A DNA stretch of 64,000 nucleotides from Malacoraja senta (taxonomy: Eukaryota), in the NCBI GenBank assembly GCA_038087875.1, contig CM075992.1, forward strand, positions 8,868,001-8,932,000, written 5' to 3'. Both the position numbers and the translations under genes were made by a program. Shown one piece after another: positions 2,980-60,935 of this stretch. The notes beneath the pieces were generated by a model. The model was not told the DNA's origin. It made no database searches and saw nothing but the letters and a program-made list of their open reading frames with translations. Numbering within the stretch: the stretch's first letter is position 1; every line of letters begins with the position of its first letter.

Positions 2980-3510
2980 GAAACATAGAAACATAGAAAA
3001 TAGGTGCAGGAGGAGGCCATTCGGCCCTTCGAGCCAGCACCGACATTCATTGTGATCATGGCTGATCGTCCCCTATCAATAACCAGCCTTCTCCCCATAT
3101 CCCTTGACTCCACTAGCCCCTAGAGCTGTATCTAACTCTCTCTTAAATCCATCCAGTGACTTGGCCTCCACTGCCCTCTGTGGCAGGGAATTCCATAAAT
3201 TCACAACTCTGTGGGTGAAAACGTTTTTTCTCACCTCAGTCTTAAATGACCTCCCCTTTATTCTAAGACTGTGGTCCCTGGTTCTGGACTCGCCCAACAT
3301 TGGTAACATTTTTCCTGCATCTAGCTTGTCCAGTCCTTTTATAATGTTATATGTTTCTATAAGATCTCCCCTCATCCTTCTAAACTCCAGTGAATACAAG
3401 CCTAGTCTTTTAAATCTTTCCTCATATGACAGTCCCGCCATCCCAGGGATCAATCTCGTGATCCTACACTGCACTGCCTCAATCACAAGGATGTCCTTCC
3501 TCAAATTAGG
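2980..3510 (-). mobile_element. CR1/HER1-type LINE 3' fragment
   Basis: ORF 3076-3549: LSYEERFKRLGLYSLEFRRMRGDLIETY...RTRDHSLRI...VVNLWNSLP. 8-bp tail repeat (gaaacata)n on the + strand. Confidence 0.9.
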
Positions 3511-4702
3511 ATGTCCTTCCTCAAAAAAGAAGAAGGGTCGAAACGTCACTCATTCCTTCTCCCCAGAGATGCTGCCTGTCCCGCTGAGTTACTCCAGCAT
3601 TTTGTGTCTATCTTGAGATTAGTATAATTTGGCAATGTGATCGGTGCAAATATAGTGGGCCGAAGGGCTCGTTCCTCCACCATATTTTGCTATGCAATTT
3701 AAAAGTAAAACTGGTAGTTATGGAAATCAAAACCCAAATTAATATTGTGTAAGAAGGAACTGCAGATACTGGTTTAAACCAAAGATAGACACAAAAAGCT
3801 GGAGTAATTCAGCGGGAACTACCCTGACTTTCAGTCTGAAGAAGGGTCTCCACTCAAAAGTCACCTATTCTTTTTCTCCAGAGATGCTGTCTGACCCACT
3901 GAGTTACTCCAGCTTTTTGTGTCTATCCCGAATTAATATTTGTTGGCGATACAAACTTAGGTATGGTACTTCCCAATTTCCTCTCTGCATACCAAAATCA
4001 CAATGGGGATCAAACTAGGATCCATAATAAAAGATGGTTCAGGGTGGAGTGGGCAGATTTCATATATTCTTACAAGATCTTATCTTCAGTCTGAAGAAGG
4101 GTTTTGGCCCGAAACGTTGCCTATTTCCTTCGCTCCATAGGTGCTGCTGCACCCGCTGAGTTTCTCCAGCACTTTTGTCTAACTCAGACCAACAGTCCTC
4201 GAACCAGAATTACCCTTTTTGCATATTTCAAGGCTGCACTTATCTTGAGATTTTTTATAATATATTTTAATTCTCCACCTATCAAATATGAAAACACTTC
4301 TAGGACAAAGTAGCATCAATGTTTAGCTTAGTAACAGACCCTTCTGTCCACTGAGTACACACTGATCATCCATTCACACTGGTTCTCTGTAATCTTACTT
4401 TCCCATTCAATCTCCACACACCTGGGGGCAATTTACAGAGGGTCAATTAACCTATAAACTCATGCATCCTTGAGATGTGGGAGAAAATCAAAGCACCTGG
4501 AAAAAACAGGTTATAGGGAGAACGTACAAACTTCTCACAGATAGCACCCGAGGTCAGGATCGAACCCAGGACTCTGGCACTTAGAGGCAGCAGCTCTACC
4601 AGCTGCACCGCTGTGTTGCTTACATATTTTGATACATTGAATTACTGAGTAAATTATGGAACATATGTAGAAAGTTATCGCCACTGCTAACATTTTACTT
4701 AC

Positions 4703-4850
4703 CATAGCAAAAAGGTTGTCATAACCCTTCACCTTTGTTGGCACTTTGGAGAATTTCTGATCAAATGCATCAGAAATGTTATGGGCTGGGTCCGTGGAAA
4801 TAATCAGCACAGTCTCTCGAACCTCTGCCAACTGCACAGCCAAGCTGCAA
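4703..4850 (-). CDS. GET3: GET3/ASNA1 coding exon 2
   Basis: Acceptor ttccaaacag| and donor ATG|GTAAGT. 148 nt: (S)[49 protein letters not shown], with the switch I motif STDPAH. Phases join exons 1 and 3. Confidence 0.97.
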
Positions 4851-17002: not shown

Positions 17003-17883
17003 GAACTGTATTATATTTTACACCGTTAAGATCAAGTCCTCAACCCATTGCCCTGACTGCACAGAGATTTTTTGATGGCCTGAAATGTATTTATTTGAAT
17101 TTGTGGTATGAAACCGACACCTGCAAAACATCCAATGCATTGTTTAAGTTCCAGCATTGAGATCCTGTCCATTTTCAAAGTGATTATTAATGTACAGTTT
17201 CCCTCTCATTCCTATCCCAAATATTGTTTTCACCGTAGAACATAGTTTTCGGACTCTTTTAATCTTTATTTTTTATAATATGCACAATATAGCTCCAATT
17301 GTCAGTAAACTGTAAACTCCATGCATATTTGCTCTTTTGTGCCTCCAGTTATTAGCTACAGTACGGTGGCCAATTTTTTGAACAATGTACATAATCTTGT
17401 ATACTCTGCAGCCTCCCGCTGGCAAGTGGATTTGCCAGGTTGCCATTGAACACATCCTGGGACCGGCCAGTTTTGGAATTGGCTGGTCCGATGCTTCCTG
17501 CCTTGCTCTGAGGAGCCCAGTGCCAAGTGGTGCTGTCAGCGCCCTCTGCTATCTCCATGAAGCTCCAGGGGTAAGAGGCAGCGAGGCTCGTTCCTTGTAG
17601 TCTGTTGTTTACACCACTAGGAGGCCTGGTGGTTCCACTCTGGGGATGTGGTATATCCAGGGGACAGAATAGGACTGGCCACTGTCCCCTGACGGCACTT
17701 TCCAGTGGATCAATCTGGGGTTCATGAATGGACGTCCCAGTGTAGTTAAGGCGGACCGAGCAGTTGTGAACAGGGATTGGAGTGGGGTTAGCAAAGGTTT
17801 CTCAAGTCCACAAACTAACCTCAGATGTATTTAGCAGAACATTTTCACACCACTGTGAATATAATTTTCACCCAGCTAGCTTT

Positions 17884-18083
17884 NNNNNNNNNNNNNNNNN
17901 NNNNNNNNNNNNNNNNNNNNNNNNNNNNNNNNNNNNNNNNNNNNNNNNNNNNNNNNNNNNNNNNNNNNNNNNNNNNNNNNNNNNNNNNNNNNNNNNNNNN
18001 NNNNNNNNNNNNNNNNNNNNNNNNNNNNNNNNNNNNNNNNNNNNNNNNNNNNNNNNNNNNNNNNNNNNNNNNNNNNNNNNNNN
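17884..18083. other. Assembly gap (200 N)
   Basis: Run of exactly 200 N, probably a fixed-size scaffolding gap. Confidence 0.99.
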
Positions 18084-18795
18084 CCTCTATTTTGCATGTG
18101 GCCTCACACTGACAGTGGAGGAGGCCTAGGACAGGAAGGTCAGTGTGGGAATGGGTGGGGCAATGAAAGCGCTGACGAGTCATCGTCTGTTGATCTGAGC
18201 AAGACCATTTGTTCCCAGGCTTTTCTCCCTGGCTGATCACCAACTCGCAATCCATGCTGGATTTATTCTCTATTTGGACCCAACTGAAGAGGCATCTAAA
18301 TCCCAGCCACCTCGGTGAGCCTGGATTCGATATAAATGGTCATTTGGATCGGCTGCAAATGCATTTCATGTGCTCATGATCGCAAGGGGGAGCAACACAC
18401 ACGACGGTTTGATCTTGGAGACACGGAACTGCATGTGCGGGAACCTTGAGAAAAACACAAAGTGCTGGAGGAACTTGGGCGGGAACATGGAGAGGAAAGA
18501 TTTAGAGGGATATGGACCAAATGTGGGGAAATGGGACCACACCCTGAACTTTTGTTTCCATCCGTTATGTACTATGTTTACATATTGTGTTGTGCTGCAG
18601 TGAGTAAGAATTTCATTGTCCTATCTGGGACACATGACAATAAAACACTCTTGACTCTCTCTCTTGACTCTATTCTGGTAAACCCTCCTCTAATCCTTTC
18701 CATATTCACTATCCTTCCTGTAATGGGGTGACCAGAACGGCATGCAATACTCCAAATACGGCCGAAACAGTCCTATACAGCTGCATCATGACTTA

Positions 18796-19789: not shown

Positions 19790-20290
19790 GACATTAGACA
19801 ATAGACAATAGGTGCAGGAGTAGGCCATTCGGTCCTTCAAGCCAGCACCACCATTCAATGTGATTATGGCTGATCATCCCCAATCAGTACCCCGTTCCTG
19901 CCTTCTCCCCATATCCCCTGACTCCGCTATCTTTAAGAGCCCTATCTAGCTCCCTCTTGAAAGTATCCAGAGAACCGGCCTCTACCTCCCTCCGAGGCAG
20001 AGAATTCCACAGACACACAACTCTCTGTGAGAAAAAGTGTTTCCTTGTGTCCATTCTAAATGGCTTATCCCTTATTCTTAAACTGTGGCCCCTGGTTCTG
20101 GACTCCCCCAACATCGGGAACATGTTTCCTGCCTCTAGCGTGTCCAAACCCTTAATAATCTTACATGTTTCAATAAGATACCCTCTCATCCTTCTAAACT
20201 CCAGAGTGTACAAGCCCAGCCTCTCCATTCTCTCAGCATATGACAGTCCCGCCATCCTGGGAATTAACCTTGTAAACCTACGCTGCACTC
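19790..20290 (-). mobile_element. CR1/HER1-type LINE 3' fragment (near-identical relatives at 22175-22490, 36880-37195, 45000-45415, and on + at 63680-64000)
   Basis: VQRRFTRLIP.MAGLSYAERMERLGLYTLEFRRMRG...RTRGHSLRIR...WNSLP. Tail (acaataga)n on the + strand. Many older CR1 pieces occur elsewhere, e.g. 6840-7175, 10345-10975, 19290-19580 and 55490-55845. Confidence 0.9.
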
Positions 20291-22130
20291 CCATCCTTAA
20301 CATTGGTGCCACCGATCAGCAGGGGAGTTGGGTTGTAGAGATCACGCACCAACATCACAAATCCAGCTATCATCCGAAACAAACCAGCTTTATCCAGAGT
20401 TTCCAGCAGTTGTATAAATGGAAGACATTTTCTGAAAGTTAAATATTATGTTCTTGAACCTGAAAGCCCAACGTCTTGCAACAAGTCTTTACAGTGTTAC
20501 TCATGCTCAAAATAGTTATGTGATTGAGTTGAAACAAGCACACCCATATAATTGTCTGTACACCACGGTGTGTATTAACAGTGCTAGTCACACTTCAACC
20601 ATAAGTTTAGAGTTAGGCATGGAAACAGGCCCTTCGGTCCACTGAGTCCATGCCGACCATCTATCACCCGTCCGCACTAGTTCTACGCTACCCCCACTTT
20701 CTCATCCACTCCTTGCACACTTAGAGGGCTAGTTAAGCTACAAACCCGCACGTCTTTTGGATGGGGGAGGAAACCGGAGCACCCGGAGGAAACCCAGGCT
20801 GTCACAGGGAGAGCGATCAAACTCTACACCGTCAGGGAGTTTGAACGTACTCCCTGTGACAGCGTGGGTTTTTCTCCAGGTGCTCCGGTTTCCTCCCACA
20901 ATCCCAAGGACGTACAGGTTTGTAGGGTAATTGGCTTCGTTAAAAATCTAAATTGTCCCCATTGTGTAGGATAGCGCTCGTGTATGGGATCGCTGGTCGG
21001 CGCAGACTTGGTGGGCCGAAGGGCCTGTTTCCCCGATGTATCTCACAAGTAAGCTTTATAAGTCAGGATCGAAGCCGGGTCTCTGACGCTGTGAGGCAGT
21101 GGTTCTACCAGCTGCGCCACTGTGAACACCCTGCCACTGACTGTGTGGGGTTGGATAGGTCTGAGGAGGACTATGCTGGCGTCTGGAATAGTTGGATGTC
21201 TGGGACACTTCATTCCTTGACCAGGTTGTACGTCACACTCACACGTTATTCTTCCATGGGCCTTCAAGGAACAGCAGGGTCAGCTTGTGTCGTGCAGGTG
21301 AATGGGGCTAGGAGGGAAAGATAGATCAGCCATGATTGAATGGCGGAGTAGACCCGATGGGCCGAATGGCCTAATACTACTCCTAGAACTTATGAACACC
21401 AATTTTGAGATCTTTGGCCTAATCCTCATGGCTCTTCCTAGTAGTGTGGTAACTAAGGGCATGTGGAAGGTGTAAGAAAGAAATGGTATAAGTCGAAGGT
21501 AGACACAAAATGCTGGAGTAACTCAGCGGGTGAAGCAGCATCTCTGGAGAAAAGGAATGGGTGACGTTTCGGATCGAGACCCTAGAAGTGTCTTGACCCG
21601 AAACGTCGCCCATTCCTTCTCTCCAGAGATGCTGCCTCACCCGCTGAGTTACTCCACCATTCTGTGTCTACCTAAGGGCGTGTAGACACATACAGTCGGG
21701 TAGACACTACTGTCGGGTTCCTTCCGCTCAGAGATAGTCACCATTACCGGCAGTAGGCTTTTCAATTCCACGTTTGCTCAATGGACTGCATGTTAATTCC
21801 CACCCTGAGGTGGTGATGAAATTTGAACTGACATCCACCGAACTGGAGGATTATCGGCCCGACAATGACTCTGCTGCTGCATTGTTTTTACTGTAATATC
21901 TTTGTGCTGAGTTGCCGTGGCAGTGACCGCCAGCTTCCCTCTGGGCTGGAACAGGCTGTAACTTTGCAAAGGACATTGCGCAGTGAGGATGTTGCACCAA
22001 CGTTCACACTTTCACATAAAGAGCTCTTGCTCAAACGTCTGTGCTTTCATGTTCCAGGCCAGCCACACTTTGACACTGCTGGTGAAGGGAGTTTTAGGGA
22101 CACCTTCGCTCAGTCCGCCTTGGCCTTTGC

Positions 22131-44589: not shown

Positions 44590-46911
44590 CTGGCGGAATA
44601 ATAAACAGGAATTTCAATTAGGTTAGATTTTTTTTAAAGTGCACTAATAACATATTCTTTATTTTCGTTGCTAAAGTTTCATCTTATGTATTCTTCTTTA
44701 CCAATAAGGTCAGTCGGAAATTGACTTTTTTTGCTGAGTTTGACTGTCGTTTATTGTCTCGCGTACAGTGAAAAGCTTTTGTTGTGTGCTAACCAGTCAA
44801 GCAGAAAGATAATACATGATTACAAGTGAGCCATCCACATTGTACAGATACATGAGTGATGGGTGTCGGGGGTTATGGGGTAAAGGCAGAATGGGGTTAG
44901 GAGGGAGAGATAGGTCAGCTATGATTGAATGACAGAGTAGACTTGATCGCATTGACCTAATTCTGCTCCTATCACTTATGATAGGAGCAGAATTATGATA
45001 ATGTGATCATGGCTGATCATCCCCAATCAGTACCCCGTTCCTGCCTTCTCCTCATATCCCCTGACTCCGCTATTTTTAAGAGCCCTATCTAGCTCTCTCT
45101 TGAAAGCATCCAGAGAACCTGCCTCCACCGCCCTCTGAGGCAGAGAATTCCACAGACTCACCACTCTCAGTGAGAAAAAGTGTTTCCTCGTCTCCGTTCT
45201 AAATGGTTTACCCCTTATTCTTAAACTGTGGCCCCTGGTTCTGGACTCCCCAAACATCGGGAACACGTTTCCTGCCTCTAGCGTGTCCAAGCCCTTAACA
45301 ATCTTATATGTTTCAATGAGATGCCCTCTCATCCTTCTAAACTCCAGAGTGTACAAGCCCAGCTGCTCCATTCTCTCAGCATATGACAGTCCCGCCATCC
45401 CAGGAATTAACCTTGTTGAAGTTTCTTGGATGCGGCCTTATTAGATTACAGCTAACTTAATGCAGCATTCCAACATGAAAAGGTTCCCCACCCCTGGTAT
45501 AAACCAGCATCTGCAGTTGTTCCTACTTCCAGACCAGCCTTGCAGGTGCCACCCTGTCAAAAGCCTTGATAAGTCCATGTAGACAACATCAAACAGACTG
45601 AACTTATCCATCATCTTCATCTAATTTGTGAGATGTTTTCCTACACACAAAGCCATGCTGACTATCTTTCATGAGACATTGCCTTTCCAAATACATATCC
45701 CTCAATCCCTTCCAATAACCTACCCACCACAGATGTTACACTCACCAACCTGTAGCTCTCTGCCTTGAACAAAGGCTATCGATGATACAATCATCTTTTT
45801 CACACACAGAGTGGAATTCTCTGCCTCAGAGGGCAGTGGAGGCTGGTTCTCTGGATGCTTTCAAGTGAGAGTTAGATAGAGCTCTTGAGGATAGCGGTTA
45901 AGGGATATCGAGAGAAGGCAGAAACGGGGCACTAATTGGCCACGCACTCATCTCTCTGCTACCATTGGGTAGATGGTACAGGAGCCTGAAATCTGGTACA
46001 TCCAGGTTCAGGAACAGCTTCTTCCCCACAGCCATCAGGCTATTATAGAAACATAGAAAATAGGTGTAGGAGGAGGCCATTCGGCCCTTCAAGCCAGCAC
46101 CGCCATTCATTGTGATCATGGCTGATCGTCCCAGATCAATAACCCATGCCTGCCTTCTCCCCATATCCCTTGATTCCACTAGCCCCTCGCCAACAAACAG
46201 ACTCTGAACTGTAACAGCCAATTGCACTTTATCTGTCTATTTATGTGTATATTGAACTGAACTGTTCTGTATTAATGCTTACAATATTATCTTGTGCTGC
46301 AGCAAGCAAGAATTTCATTGTCCTATCTGGGACACATGACAATAAACTCTCTTGACTTGACCCTCCGTCTGTCTGACCTCTGGTACCCTCTGCCGGTCTG
46401 ATTGTGGATGATCAGCCATGATCACATTGAATGGCGATGCTGGCTCGAAGGGCCGAATGGCCTAATCCTGCACCTATTGTCTATTAAACATCTCTGCCAA
46501 GAGTCCAGGAATTTATTCTCTAGCTTCCCACAATGTCCCAGGGTACACTTAATCAAGTGCCCGGACATTTATCTATGTTTGGCATTTTAAGATAGCACTT
46601 CAAGGCACTCGGCCCGAGACGTCACCCACTCTTTCTATCCAGGGATGCTGCCTGTCCTGCTGAGTTAATACAGCATTTTGTGTCTATCTTCCTCTTCTGT
46701 AATGTGGATGCTCCTCAACTCTATTAATTGCCCAGAGTTCCCTAACATCTATGTCGCTCTCCACAGCAAATACAGATGTGAATTGAGACTGAATGCTACT
46801 TGTCCTCACCATCATTCCATTCACAGCTTCCTCCACCAACACACAAAAGAATACAAGTGGCTGCATTTCATTTAGATCTTTCAATTAAGTTTCCAGTGGA
46901 AGATACATTAC

Positions 46912-57395: not shown

Positions 57396-57660
57396 TGCAT
57401 CTTATAGAGATGCAGCATGCAAACAGGTCCTTTGGCCCACTGAATCCCCGCTGAATCCCCGCTGAAGCAAAAAAACAATTCATACAACACAGATTTTTTT
57501 TGTATATACAAAGACAATGTTTCTCCCTTCCAACCATCTCATCCACAGAAACGTTTGTGCTAAATGTTGCTGGGATGGTTGCAGCTCTTAGACCTTCTGC
57601 AAATGGTCAATTCTTATGAAAATGACCAGGCCATTCTTACGAACAACAGGCTATTCAACT

Positions 57661-57802
57661 TCTTCTTCATCTTGCATATGGCGTGCACAGCCTAAAGTTG
57701 TAGGACAACTTGTTCTATTTGGTCTTATTTGATTGTGCACGCCAGGTTGATTGCATTCGTCGAAACAGGGCGGACCACGTGAAGGTTGCAATCTCCCACC
57801 CC
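57661..57802 (-). mobile_element. 142-bp non-autonomous retroelement with 5' HDV-like ribozyme and GAA tail (element A)
   Basis: Perfect 12-bp TSD ggctattcaact (57649-57660 and 57803-57814). Starts at ribozyme G1. Internal 11-bp stem TGGCGTGCACA/TGTGCACGCCA. Ends catatgcaagatgaagaaga. Confidence 0.85.
57749..57802 (-). ncRNA. Minimal HDV-like self-cleaving ribozyme (predicted, 54 nt)
   Basis: GGGGUGG(P1)-GA-GAUUGCA(P2)-ACC(P3)-UUCACGU(L3)-GGU(P3')-CCGCCCU(P1', G1.U wobble)-GU(P1.1)-UUCGA-CGAA(J4/2 with catalytic C)-UGCAAUC(P2'). Confidence 0.85.
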
Positions 57803-58966
57803 GGCTATTCAACTAATTGGGGACCACAGCCAAACAAACTCAGCTGCTGTATACTATCATATTGAGTCTCATTACCTGAAACTCCTTTTCACCTAGGCCA
57901 CAGCTAACAATGGCCAGTCGCCTTTGTCATCGTAACTTTTTAACATATTTTTAATTAATTTGTTCTATATATATTTCTCTCTGTATCACCATCTATATCT
58001 CTTGTTTCCCTTTCCCCTGACTCTCAGTCTGAAGAAGGGTCTCGACCCAAATTCCTTTTCTCCAGAGATGTTGTCTGACCGGCTGAGTTACTCCAGCTTT
58101 TTGTGTCTATCTGCTGTACACTATCCATGTGTTTGAGAGTGAGTGGTACTGTTCCTGCAGCCCATCGCTGCCCAGTGACTCTGCCAAAGGCCCACATCAC
58201 TGTTAAGCTGGAATTGTCTTCACTGGTTCCTCATCTCCAAGGCAGAAGTTATAATCTGTGCACCACAAATTCTACACGTGTACCCTTACACCAACCTCCA
58301 GGGACCTCTGCATCTATGGGCAACCAAGGTGTGTGGTACAGCGGTAGAGTTGATGCCTCACAGCGCCAGAGTCCCGGGTTCAATCCCGACTACGGGTGCT
58401 GCCTGTACCGAGTTTGTAAGTTCTCCCCGTGACCCGCGTGGGTTTCCTCCCACATTCCAAAGACGTGCGGGTTTGCAGGTGAATTGGCCTCTGTGTGGTG
58501 GGAAGGAAGCAGGGCTTCAGGATCATCCACCTGACATGGACAGCTCCATCTTGGGGGAGCAGCAGCAACAGCGGAAACCGTTGGATGAAAGGGACTACAA
58601 AAAGTGTGACTGCTGAAATAGCACAGGCAACGAGCCAATGTGTTCCACTTGACACGGCACGAACTCCACAACAAACGGCAGCACCATGCAAGGACGCCAC
58701 TGGTCTTAAAATTGAGCGAAAGTGGATTGTGCAATAAAAATCAGATAAACGTGTTCATAGTTCACCCCTATCTTCAAAAAGTCATTAAAACAGATAAGCA
58801 CCTTGGCTGTACAATTTCACATATCGTTATATACAAATACAACATGGCTCAAAGGATACAGGATGTAATACTTAAACATACTTCATGAAATAAAAGTCAA
58901 ATAAATAACAGAAACAAAAAGTCCAGTGAATGTAGAAAACACCTGTAGCAAATATAAATGTTCTTA

Positions 58967-59107
<141 letters not shown>

Positions 59108-60351
59108 TTAAGTCCAGCACGGATACTGACCTCCCCACCATCGAAGGGATCTACAGGAGTCGCTGCCTCAAAATGGCAGCCAGCATCATCAGAGACCCAC
59201 ACCACCCTGGCCACACACTCATTTCACTCTTGCCATTGGGAAGAAGAGATAGGAGCCTGAAAACTAACATCCAGGGTCTGGAACAGCTTCTTCCCTTCAA
59301 CCATCAGTCTATTAAACACTACAACCTCCAAATAAGCTCTGAATTACATAGACTTGGGAGCATTGTTTTTTTTTGTGTATGTGTATATACAGCTGGAGAT
59401 GAACTGAAAATGTGCAAAAACCCCATGGCACTGCTTGGAAAGCAAGTGAGACACCTTCCCTCACGAAGGAAGAGACTGCCTGGTAGTCTAATGGAGACCT
59501 CGTATAATAATACAGCAGCATTCCTGTTCTTCACTGACCCACCACAATCATCTAACAATCTAGGCCTGTCCAGAACTACGCAGAAGTACACTTCAAGTTG
59601 CTAATTCACAATGGGTTTTTTCTTTAGTTTAAATTATCATCTAATCATAAATAAATTAATATTCCACAGGGAAGATTCCACTTAAATATATTTGTTAGTC
59701 TTTCATGTTAAGGCATTCTTTGGGTTACAGCAGTGCGGGACTCAAAACCAATTGTCTTATGAACCCGACCAAGTTAAGTGATTCTAATACTACCATTCAA
59801 AAAAATCTTGCACGCACACACACAGCATGGAAACAGGCCCTTTGGCCCACTAAGTCCACACCGAACATTGGTCACCTGTTCACTAGTTCTCTGTTATCCC
59901 ACTTTCTCATCCACTTCCTACTCACTAGGGGCAAATTTACAGAGGGCCAATTAAACTACTAACCCGCACGTCTTTGGGATGTGGGAGGAAACAAGAGCAC
60001 CCGGGGGAAACCCACGTGGTCACAGGGAGAATGTGCAAACTCCACACAGACAGTACTCGTAGTCAGGATCGAACCAGGGTCTCTGGTGCTGTTGGCAGCA
60101 GCTCTACCAGCTGTGCTGTACATCCAAAAAGAAAAAAAATCTTGAATTCCAATCTTCCAATCTACCTTGCTGAAGCCCATGCATTCTTTTTCATCTGCAC
60201 ATTCCCTGTAGCAGTAACACTATATTCTGCACTCTTTATTTATTTATTTTTGCACTATTTGGTGTAATCATGCATGAAATGATTTGCCTGGAAAATACAG
60301 TGTAAAACCTTGTTTTGTGTATCTCAGTACACATGCCGTTAGTAAATCAAT

Positions 60352-60418
60352 GGCCCCATAGCAGAAGCGTCCACGTCGCGGGGCTGGAGACTGGAAGTAT
60401 CCTGAGCTAATTCTGCTA
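60352..60418 (+). ncRNA. HDV-like self-cleaving ribozyme, CPEB3-like core (predicted, 67 nt)
   Basis: GGCCCC(P1)-A-UAGCAGAA(P2)-GCG(P3)-UCCACGU(L3)-CGC(P3')-GGGGCU(P1', G1.U)-GG(P1.1)-P4 region with GGA-AGUA-UCC-CUAA(J4/2, C60407)-UUCUGCUA(P2'). Confidence 0.85.
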
Positions 60419-60543
60419 CCACCATCATCTATTGCGACAAGTGATGGCTTCCACTGATTGTCACAGCAGGAAGCTTGCGTCCTTTTCAGGACGGACGATG
60501 ACAGCGAGGTCAACATTTGTAACAAGATGGACATGAAAAGAAG
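60352..60543 (+). mobile_element. 192-bp non-autonomous retroelement with 5' HDV-like ribozyme and GAA-rich tail (element B)
   Basis: 11-bp TSD agtaaa(t/c)caat at 60341-60351 and 60544-60554. Starts at ribozyme G1, has three further hairpins, and ends gacatgaaaagaag. Confidence 0.8.
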
Positions 60544-60935
60544 AGTAAACCAATGCCAATAAAAATCAACCATGCACTGTTGGGAGTATTGATATTGGTT
60601 TGTCATTGGCACATGTACAGAGATACAGCGAGAAGCATTGTTTTGCATGTTAGCCCACTAAATAAAACCAAAGGGTTTAAATAAGGCTAGAGGTGAAGGG
60701 GAAGGAAATTGATGACACGAATCTAAACATGTGGAATTCCAACTGGTAATGCAAAGGGATAACTTTTGCAATCCTACACAATTATCACGTGTAGTAGGAT
60801 ATACTACCAAAGTACAATCCTACTTGGAACTGAGTTTATCTGATCTCCAAGTGGGTTCCAGGTAATAAAAGAGCAGCACCATTTTCACCCATATCTTATC
60901 ACCATAATAACAAAATGGTCATTTCTAAAGCAACA

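What the first reader, a model, noticed from the sequence alone, without database searches (positions are those of the whole stretch)
60352..60543. TSD-flanked mini-retroelement whose 5' end is an HDV-like ribozyme closely resembling the mammalian CPEB3 ribozyme core
Seen: the 192-bp insert begins exactly at G1 of a complete nested double pseudoknot. It has a 6-bp P1 with G1.U wobble, a perfect 8-bp P2 (UAGCAGAA/UUCUGCUA), P3 GCG/CGC, a 7-nt L3 UCCACGU, a 2-bp P1.1 (CC/GG) and J4/2 CUAA with the catalytic C at 60407. Three further hairpins follow (ccatca/tgatgg, gcttcc/ggaagc, cgtcct/aggacg), then a GAA-rich tail and an 11-bp TSD. No tRNA-type Pol III boxes are evident. Established: HDV-like ribozymes process the 5' ends of R2 and Ingi/L1Tc retroelements. 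From recall, the CPEB3 ribozyme reads ...AGCAGAAGCGUUCACGUCGC...AAUUCUGCU; this element has AGCAGAAGCGUCCACGUCGC...AAUUCUGCU, one difference across P2-P3-L3. Inference: a ribozyme-initiated SINE-like family in cartilaginous fish that may be related to the mobile ancestor of the intronic CPEB3 ribozyme.
Basis: partly seen in the sequence, partly recalled or inferred. Interest (0 to 1): 0.92.

Follow-up and report, generated by a model that had tools for sequence, protein, structure and literature searches.

The report
Ribozyme-headed SINE with CPEB3-type core
A 192-base jumping-DNA copy begins exactly at the cut site of a self-cleaving RNA very like the mammalian CPEB3 ribozyme, belongs to a family of hundreds to thousands of copies, and hints that the mammalian ribozyme came from such mobile elements.

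Summary
Window 60352-60543 is one copy of a young, high-copy, non-coding retroelement. An exact 23-mer at its ribozyme/body junction occurs 752 times in the 1.94-Gb genome. Copies start at G1 of an HDV-like double pseudoknot, end in GACAYGAAAAG(AAG)n, and are flanked by 11-14-nt target-site duplications in 25 of 30 copies. Rfam's mammalian CPEB3 model is the only family reaching its threshold in the window (41.1 bits against a cut-off of 35).

The same genome holds a ~3.13-kb single-ORF endonuclease/reverse-transcriptase LINE. By architecture it looks RTE-like. It carries a CPEB3-type ribozyme at its own 5' end (up to 64 bits) and the same 14-nt 3' terminus, so it is the likely mobiliser. At least four further ribozyme-headed families exist, one of them 2.5 kb away in this window. 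Helices P1, P2 and P4 covary across families (17 of 26 pairs).

A related LINE on metagenome contigs has a ribozyme matching the Rfam CPEB3 consensus at 35 of 37 5' positions and 9 of 9 in the P2 3' strand.

Self-cleavage was not assayed, the host taxon is not established, and descent of the mammalian ribozyme from this lineage is inferred.

The parts
60341..60351 (+). upstream target-site duplication AGTAAATCAAT
   Evidence: 10 of 11 identical to 60544-60554. The same arrangement is seen in 25 of 30 family copies.
60352..60418 (+). HDV-like (CPEB3-type) self-cleaving ribozyme. G1 = 60352, P1 60352-57/60380-85, P2 60359-66/60411-18, P3 60367-69/60377-79, L3 60370-76, P1.1 60371-72/60386-87, P4 60391-60404, catalytic C 60407.
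   Evidence: Rfam RF00622 41.1 bits against cut-off 35. Own model R1 67.5 bits. Descriptor hit. Covariation across families.
60419..60529 (+). non-coding body. It starts with the ACCAC motif shared by the families and holds three short hairpin repeats. No similarity to the LINEs was found.
   Evidence: The window copy carries a private 3-nt insertion near 60462.
60530..60543 (+). 3' terminus GACATGAAAAGAAG (family form GACACGAAAAG(AAG)n), shared with the 3' end of LINE A
60544..60554 (+). downstream target-site duplication AGTAAACCAAT

Best explanation
The insert is a copy of a short non-autonomous non-LTR retroelement, SINE-like but without a Pol III promoter. It is probably transcribed passively inside longer host transcripts. 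Its first 67 nt fold into an HDV-like nested double pseudoknot that cuts the RNA immediately 5' of G1. This frees an RNA that begins exactly with the element. Its last 14 nt plus the (AAG)n tail mimic the 3' end of a ~3.13-kb LINE in the same genome. That LINE has a single ORF with endonuclease and reverse-transcriptase domains and is RTE-like by architecture. Its protein would copy the RNA into a nicked target by target-primed reverse transcription, leaving 11-14-nt duplications. The ribozyme belongs to a sequence lineage shared by that LINE, by several sister SINE-like families, by a LINE from an unrelated source, and by the mammalian CPEB3 intronic ribozyme. Shown here: the anatomy, the family, the 5' ends at G1, the TSDs, the partner LINE with the same head and tail, the covariation, and the Rfam match. 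Inferred: cleavage activity, read-through transcription, which LINE does the mobilising, and common descent with the mammalian ribozyme.
For: Rfam: RF00622 is the only family at its gathering score in 64 kb, and no other HDV model appears at E<=10. Family size: 2055 first-look candidates, and 40 of 40 scored are 95-100% identical. The exact 23-mer across the ribozyme/body junction occurs 752 times, against 0 for the reversed control. 5' ends: 39 of 40 scored matches start at base 1, 26 of 30 copies begin GGCCCCAT, and similarity stops there. TSDs: 25 of 30 copies have 11-14-nt repeats with at most 1 mismatch that abut G1 and follow the tail. Two pairs of loci are duplicates, so 23 of 28 are independent. 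Partner: RF00622 over the genome gave 39 of 59 scored candidates above the cut-off, best 64.2 bits. The best ones head a LINE with a 940-aa ORF (RVT_1 3e-32, Exo_endo_phos). Five of 7 LINE copies examined run 3.10-3.13 kb from G1 to GACACGAAAA(GAA)n, and 4 of those 5 have 11-nt repeats abutting G1. SINE and LINE share the ribozyme core (18 nt) and the terminal 14 nt only. Structure: on 17 ribozymes from 6 families plus one metagenome LINE, 87.7% of cells pair, against 38-49% when partners are slid. Seventeen of 26 pairs change on both sides, and 0 of 500 shuffles reach the covariation score. No tRNA and no B box in the element. Established knowledge: HDV-like ribozymes cut at the 5' junction of R2, R4, L1Tc and RTE elements (PMC3774820, passages seen).
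Against: No cleavage assay was done. In the one raw RNA run laid (X23, poly(A), about 6% of the run read), 128 reads lay on the element on both strands. No pile of read starts was reported at G1. Twenty-six reads at 60351/60352 run on into unlike upstream flanks. So most sampled transcripts are uncleaved, antisense, or DNA carry-over. The depth at the boundary is only about 33 reads. P4 is weak in this family and Rfam marks its P4 pairs as non-standard. No LINE in this genome carries this SINE's exact ribozyme: the ribozyme end followed by non-SINE letters matched once, and that was a mutated SINE. The SINE body matches neither LINE, so it is not a simple internal deletion. The 40 scored copies are the best-scoring ones, so 5'-truncated copies are under-sampled.
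Confidence: 0.85

Rival explanations
1. The likeness to the mammalian CPEB3 ribozyme is convergent. Any compact HDV-like ribozyme under the same functional constraints ends up looking like this, and there is no common descent.
For: Only a handful of positions are said to be invariant in the HDV fold, and L3 and J4/2 are functionally constrained (review PMC8256844, passage seen). The ribozymes are short (about 67 nt). P4 of the SINE is unlike CPEB3.
Against: Helix sequences are free to vary, as the covariation among these families shows. Designed ribozymes kept their rates when P1 and P2 were swapped (PMC6326823, passage). Yet the metagenome LINE L069 matches the Rfam consensus at 35 of 37 positions from G1 through P1' and 9 of 9 in P2'. 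LINE A shares unbroken runs of 18, 8 and 7 nt with the consensus. Two other predicted HDV-like ribozymes give no RF00622 match at E<=10. RF00622 rings in 0 of 14 control genomes.
Confidence: 0.2
2. The ribozyme is a dead passenger. The element's 5' end is set by an internal promoter that starts at G1, as with the dual promoter/ribozyme Pr77 of L1Tc, or by the end of reverse transcription, and not by self-cleavage.
For: No start pile at G1 in the RNA reads laid. Activity is untested. L1Tc shows that one 5' segment can be both promoter and ribozyme (PMC3383444, abstract seen).
Against: The fold is kept through compensatory changes across at least 6 families with different helix sequences. This is hard to explain without selection on the structure. 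G1.U, the catalytic C and P1.1 are all intact in the family. The LINE's own 5' end also sits at G1.
Confidence: 0.1
3. It is the orthologue of the CPEB3 intronic ribozyme: a single conserved regulatory element in a host gene.
For: It passes Rfam's CPEB3 threshold.
Against: There are hundreds to thousands of dispersed copies with TSDs. The CPEB zinc-finger domain (PF16366) maps to contigs C15, C17, C2128 and C2259, not to C16 where the window lies.
Confidence: 0.01
4. It is an ordinary tRNA-, 5S- or 7SL-derived Pol III SINE that happens to contain a pseudoknot-like sequence.
For: Its length, LINE-like tail and TSDs are SINE-like.
Against: ARAGORN finds no tRNA in 60200-60700. No B box within 2 mismatches lies in the element. 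Rfam finds no tRNA, 5S or 7SL match at E<=10.
Confidence: 0.03

Closest known systems
Mammalian CPEB3 ribozyme (Rfam RF00622)
   Same: Same fold. The core sequence is near-identical (P2, P3, L3, the P2' strand, the catalytic C). It scores above the family's curated cut-off.
   Different: It is multi-copy, mobile and TSD-flanked, and it does not lie in a CPEB gene. P1 is flipped by compensatory changes and is 6 bp. P1.1 is a full CC/GG. J4/2 is CUAA rather than CGAA. P4 is unrelated. [quoted passage not shown]
HDV-like ribozymes at the 5' ends of non-LTR retrotransposons (R2, R4, RTE, Baggins, L1Tc)
   Same: The ribozyme cleaves at or near the element's 5' junction to release it from a co-transcript (PMC3774820). 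The partner LINE here has that layout.
   Different: Here the ribozyme is of the CPEB3 sequence type. Ruminski et al. 2011, the primary RTE paper, could not be read, so I cannot say how similar its RTE ribozymes are.
R2 SIDEs and trypanosome NARTc/SIDER elements (non-autonomous elements that keep the LINE's 5' ribozyme)
   Same: A short non-coding element with the LINE's ribozyme at its head and the LINE's 3' recognition end (PMC3414825 and PMC3383444, abstracts seen).
   Different: SIDEs are internal deletions of R2 and are rDNA-specific. This element is dispersed and high-copy, and its body is unrelated to the LINE. It is one of several parallel families.
RTE-mobilised SINEs (general class; recalled)
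   Same: Short 3' identity to a compact APE-RT LINE, a microsatellite tail, and TSDs.
   Different: Classical ones have a Pol III tRNA-type or 5S-type head. This one has a ribozyme head instead.

Membership tests
HDV-like self-cleaving ribozymes | Nested double pseudoknot P1-P1.1-P2-P3-P4 | tested here: met
   All helices can be read in the sequence and were found by the descriptor. 87.7% of cells pair and 17 of 26 pairs covary across families.
HDV-like self-cleaving ribozymes | G1.U wobble at the cleavage site and a catalytic C in J4/2 | tested here: met
   G60352.U60385. C60407 is aligned to the model's catalytic C.
HDV-like self-cleaving ribozymes | Site-specific self-scission 5' of G1 | not testable with these tools
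   Only indirect support: element 5' ends and TSDs abut G1. The RNA reads showed no start pile.
CPEB3 ribozyme (RF00622) | Covariance-model score at or above the gathering cut-off | tested here: met
   41.1 bits against 35 for the window copy. Sister families score 36.9-64.2 bits.
CPEB3 ribozyme (RF00622) | Single conserved copy in an intron of the CPEB3 gene | tested here: not met
   Multi-copy with TSDs. CPEB ZZ-domain loci lie on other contigs.
CPEB3 ribozyme (RF00622) | Mammalian host | not tested
   Organism names are coded or absent. A 1.94-Gb genome with a 396-Mb contig and no RF00622 match above 64 bits argue weakly against a mammal.
Classical SINE | Internal Pol III promoter (tRNA, 5S or 7SL head) | tested here: not met
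Classical SINE | Short, non-coding, LINE-like 3' end, TSDs, high copy number | tested here: met
SIDE (internally deleted LINE) | 5' and 3' parts collinear with the parent LINE | tested here: inconclusive
   Only the ribozyme core and the last 14 nt match LINE A. The whole ribozyme (74 nt, 76%) matches metagenome LINE L069. The body matches neither.
RTE clade (partner LINE) | Compact element of about 3.2 kb with a single APE-RT ORF, tiny UTRs and a microsatellite tail | tested here: met
   The features of the clade itself are recalled.
RTE clade (partner LINE) | Placement within RTE in a reverse-transcriptase phylogeny | not tested
   No reference LINE set was available. Relatives at 46-63% identity occur in amphioxus, sea urchins, fishes, a lizard, insects and crabs.

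The most novel reading that the evidence does not exclude
The mammalian CPEB3 ribozyme is a domesticated 5' head of an RTE-like retroelement. Its sequence lineage is still mobile, heading LINEs and several SINE-like families with hundreds to thousands of copies in this genome and a LINE in at least one unrelated organism. These copies would supply the outgroups that studies of CPEB3-ribozyme evolution say are missing.
Probability: 0.6. Interest if true: 0.9.

Novelty: new variant of a known kind. Interest (0 to 1): 0.8.

Why it matters
The origin of the CPEB3 ribozyme is open. It is one of very few self-cleaving RNAs in mammals and has been linked to memory. The paper that reconstructed its ancestors states that it has not been found outside mammals, so no outgroup exists (PMC8233481). 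A living retroelement lineage with the same core sequence gives a concrete and testable origin by exaptation of a LINE or SINE insertion. It also gives hundreds of natural variants for structure-function work. Finally, it shows SINE-like elements that replace a Pol III promoter with a ribozyme head, a strategy so far documented, in the papers I could see, for R2 SIDEs and trypanosome elements.

Tried and rejected
1. RNA evidence. The look-up of sequencing runs listed no holder on record as RNA. I laid one raw poly(A) run (X23) and three contig sets guessed to be RNA.

2. Host taxon. Run organisms are coded A-G. A homology search with a repeat-encoded ORF (45030-45437) returned 235 proteins, and none of the 120 listed carried an organism name.

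3. The CPEB3 locus of this genome. I located CPEB ZZ-domain exons. None of the 51 RF00622 matches listed lies on C15, C17 or C2128, but only 59 candidates were scored.

4. A parent LINE with this SINE's exact ribozyme was not found.

5. Ribozymes upstream of LINE relatives elsewhere. Only 3 of the 20 metagenome loci with 5' sequence reached the Rfam cut-off. Those 3 are one identical element. Only the same 3 of all 80 loci matched my model R1. One more (L082) was found by descriptor only.

6. Literature. No listed paper couples 'CPEB3 ribozyme' with shark, coelacanth, RTE, elasmobranch or chondrichthyan terms, or with exaptation or domestication terms. No paper prints two 25-26-mers of these ribozymes. 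Ruminski 2011 and Webb 2009 are not held. Dfam, Repbase and Rfam full alignments could not be consulted.

7. Earlier scan notes: nothing found.

8. A whole-element MFE fold is not better than shuffles (z -1.46), so I make no claim for the three body hairpins.

Full report
**What is at the coordinates**

- P1 is GGCCCC/GGGGCU, with a G1.U wobble at 60352/60385.
- P2 is a perfect 8-bp helix, UAGCAGAA/UUCUGCUA.
- P3 is GCG/CGC and L3 is UCCACGU.
- P1.1 is CC/GG.
- J4/2 is CUAA, with the candidate catalytic C at 60407.
- P4 is weak (60391-60404).

A scan of the whole 64-kb window with all 4227 Rfam models at their curated cut-offs returns a single match. It is RF00622, 'Mammalian CPEB3 ribozyme', at 60339-60417, with 41.1 bits against a cut-off of 35 and E 1.4e-7. 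A permissive scan of 60300-60600 at E<=10 adds only four chance-level matches, and none is an HDV-type family. There is one difference in AGCAGAAGCGU[U/C]CACGUCGC, and the P2 3' strand AAUUCUGCU is identical.

The flanking repeat is 10 of 11 identical (60341-51 against 60544-54). The three body hairpins exist as inverted repeats, but the element as a whole folds no better than shuffles (z -1.46).

**It is a family, and the family begins at G1**

The 192 bases find 2055 first-look candidates in the 1.94-Gb genome that holds the window. All 40 candidates that were scored are 95-100% identical over essentially the full length, and 39 of 40 start at query base 1.

I aligned 30 copies with 80 nt of flank on each side. 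Similarity begins at GGCCCCAT, which is exact in 26 of 30 copies. It ends in GACAYGAAAAG(AAG)n.

In 25 of 30 copies an 11-14-nt direct repeat (at most one mismatch) ends immediately before G1 and recurs right after the tail. Two pairs of loci are segmental duplicates, so the independent count is 23 of 28.

The exact 23-mer spanning the ribozyme/body junction occurs 752 times (367 forward, 385 reverse), against 0 for the reversed control. At about 5% divergence this implies roughly two thousand copies, which is my estimate. The scored copies are the best-scoring ones, so truncated copies are under-sampled.

Compared with the family, the window copy has one private change in J1/4 (G60389, where the others have A), a 3-nt insertion in the body, and a CpG-type C-to-T change in the tail motif.

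**The partner LINE**

Running RF00622 over the whole genome scored 59 candidates. Fifty-one matched at E<=0.001 and 39 exceeded the cut-off. The best reached 64.2 bits, and the model rang in 0 of 14 control genomes. The tool's own rough first-look count of 102,231 is unscored, and I do not use it.

The best matches head an element I call LINE A. Its ribozyme starts GGGGAUCAAGGUAGAAGCGUUCACGUCGCGAUCCCUGUCA... An open frame begins about 85 nt after G1 and reaches 940 aa in the most intact copy (L061). That frame carries Exo_endo_phos and RVT_1 domains.

Of seven copies examined, five run 3.10-3.13 kb from G1 to GACACGAAAA(GAA)n. Four of those five have 11-nt repeats abutting G1. All seven have broken frames. 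An exact 23-mer at the LINE's ribozyme/5'-UTR junction occurs 14 times.

The SINE-like element shares only two things with LINE A: the ribozyme core (18 nt) and the terminal 14 nt. This is what is expected if it borrows the LINE's 3' recognition end.

The compact single-ORF APE-RT layout with a microsatellite tail is that of the RTE clade. That statement rests on recall of the clade's features, and no RT phylogeny was made. Proteins 46-63% identical over nearly the full length occur in amphioxus, sea urchins, a sea star, fishes, a lizard, insects and crabs. They often lie on contigs of 3.0-3.4 kb.

**A superfamily of ribozyme-headed elements**

The RF00622 hits fall into at least five further sequence families. 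One of them (D) is a second TSD-flanked SINE-like element of about 185 nt. It has a P4-less ribozyme and a GACUCGAUAAG(AAG)n end.

My model R1, built from 17 of these ribozymes, and my descriptor both found another one in the window itself, at 57660-57802 on the minus strand. This element is 143 nt long. It has a P4-less HDV-like head, an (AAG)n-type tail and a perfect 11-bp TSD, GTTGAATAGCC. It belongs to a family with 940 first-look candidates, and all 40 scored are 96-100% identical.

Nearly all families continue with ACCAC directly after P2.

**The structure is under selection**

I took 17 sequences (6 families plus one metagenome LINE) and gave the tool the full pseudoknotted structure.
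- 87.7% of 398 cells form standard pairs. The figure is 38-49% when the 3' partners are slid by 1-3 columns.
- 17 of 26 pairs show changes on both sides.
- The covariation score is 0.376, against 0.06-0.12 for the slid versions.
- 0 of 500 shuffles reach the observed values.

P2 alone appears as AGCAGAA/UUCUGCU, AGCAGGA/UCCUGCU, AGAAGGA/UCCUUCU, GGUAGAA/UUCUACC and GGAAAGA/UCUUUCC. By eye, P1.1 also covaries. L3 UCC goes with J1/4 GG in this SINE and in L069. L3 UUC goes with GU in the other families.

**Relation to the mammalian ribozyme**

I scanned JGI metagenomes for relatives of the LINE protein (544 confirmed, 80 loci kept). I gave Rfam the 20 loci that include the start of the ORF with some upstream DNA. 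Three of them (L069-L071, identical in sequence) carry RF00622 at 55.6 bits.

That LINE is 51% identical in protein to LINE A. It has its own TSD (TCCGAGTCTT) and ends in GACACGAA(TCA)n. Its ribozyme reads GGGGGCCAUAGCAGAAGCGUCCACGUCGCGGCCCCUG... This matches the Rfam consensus at 35 of 37 positions from G1 through the 3' strand of P1, and at 9 of 9 positions in the P2 3' strand. It shares L3, P1.1 and J4/2 with the window's SINE.

So the mammalian consensus looks like a mosaic of states found among the retroelement ribozymes:
- P1 as in L069 and families C and E.
- P2 as in this SINE and L069.
- L3 and J1/4 as in families A, B, D and E.

Helix sequences are demonstrably free to vary here. Designed ribozymes also tolerated a swap of P1 and P2 (PMC6326823, passage). 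I therefore read this identity as common descent rather than convergence.

There are negative controls. The window's second ribozyme and the ribozyme heading the more distant LINE L082 (36% protein identity) fold as HDV-like by my descriptor, but give no RF00622 match even at E<=10.

There are also limits. Only one non-self element shows the type: 3 of 20 loci by Rfam, and the same 3 of all 80 loci by R1. Its host is unknown. I could not examine mammalian flanks.

**What the literature I could see says**

- HDV-like ribozymes cut at the 5' junction of R2, R4, L1Tc and RTE elements (PMC3774820, passages).
- Non-autonomous derivatives that keep the ribozyme are described for R2 (SIDEs, PMC3414825) and L1Tc (NARTc, PMC3383444). 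I saw only the abstracts.
- Searches coupling 'CPEB3 ribozyme' with retrotransposon terms, with shark, coelacanth, RTE or elasmobranch terms, and with exaptation terms listed no paper proposing this link. A search for the sequences themselves also found nothing.
- The two primary papers on retrotransposon HDV-like ribozymes (Webb 2009, Ruminski 2011) are not held. Dfam and Repbase were not available, so prior description cannot be excluded.

**Expression and distribution**

Near-identical words of the element are held by DNA runs under six coded organism labels (A-F) at shares of 0.71-0.86.

In the one raw RNA run laid (organism G), 128 reads lie on the element, and 96 of them are 90-95% alike. 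They lie on both strands. Twenty-six reads cross the 5' boundary into mutually unlike flanks. No pile of starts at G1 was reported.

This shows read-through transcription of many copies. It gives no support for cleavage in vivo, and at a depth of about 33 reads it gives no strong evidence against it either.

**Verdict**

It is a TSD-flanked, ribozyme-headed, promoter-less SINE-like retroelement. It is one of several such families, paired with a compact APE-RT LINE that carries the same kind of head and the same tail. The ribozyme belongs to the CPEB3 sequence type.

The mechanism of 5'-end definition by self-cleavage is known for LINEs. What is new relative to the papers I could see is the CPEB3-type sequence, the high-copy dispersed SINE-like derivatives, and the implication for the origin of the mammalian ribozyme.

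Untested: catalysis, the host taxon, the RTE assignment by phylogeny, and the direction of descent.

Noticed in passing
window 57660-57802 (-), TSDs 57803-57813 and 57649-57659: A second ribozyme-headed mini-retroelement of a different family. It is 143 nt long, has a P4-less HDV-like head (P1 GGGGUGG/CCGCCCU, P3 ACC/GGU, L3 UUCACGU), an (AAG)n-type tail and a perfect 11-bp TSD, GTTGAATAGCC. The family has 940 first-look candidates, and 40 of 40 scored are 96-100% identical. It does not match RF00622 at E<=10.
   Followed up: partly
window 60419-60423; loci L035, L044, L048, L051, L069 just 3' of P2: An ACCAC motif directly follows the P2 3' strand in the SINE, in families B-E and in the metagenome LINE. 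LINE A has AAAC instead. Its role is unknown. It may be a helix extension or a protein or translation signal.
   Followed up: no
L069 3781-6990 (metagenome contig; also L070, L071): A full-length relative of the LINE (51% protein identity) from an unknown organism. It has a CPEB3-type ribozyme head, the TSD TCCGAGTCTT, and the tail GACACGAA(TCA)n. The conserved GACACGAA end with a different microsatellite suggests that the LINE's 3' recognition motif is ancient.
   Followed up: partly
L082 12-83: A LINE relative at 36% protein identity carries a descriptor-predicted HDV-like ribozyme of a different sequence type (P3 ACC/GGU, L3 UUCUCGU) about 95 nt upstream of its ORF.
   Followed up: partly
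window about 4680-4850 (-): An exon-like open frame matches ArsA_ATPase (PF02374, E 2e-18), probably a GET3/ASNA1-type gene. The window therefore lies in or near a host gene.
   Followed up: partly
window about 17900-18150: A run of N (translated as X in the ORF 17845-18339): an assembly gap or a withheld stretch.
   Followed up: no
window 3076-3549, 19884-20315, 45027-45437 (-): Repeated open frames of an abundant repeat-encoded protein (motif ...RMRGDLIETYKI...SRTRGHSLRI...). The 45030-45437 copy, the only one scanned, has no Pfam family. 235 relatives were found in the protein collection, and none of the 120 listed carried an organism name.
   Followed up: partly
L041/L062 5237-5317 (-): One LINE A copy has a partial duplicate of the ribozyme 5' half just upstream of its intact ribozyme: a 5' junction rearrangement.
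   Followed up: no
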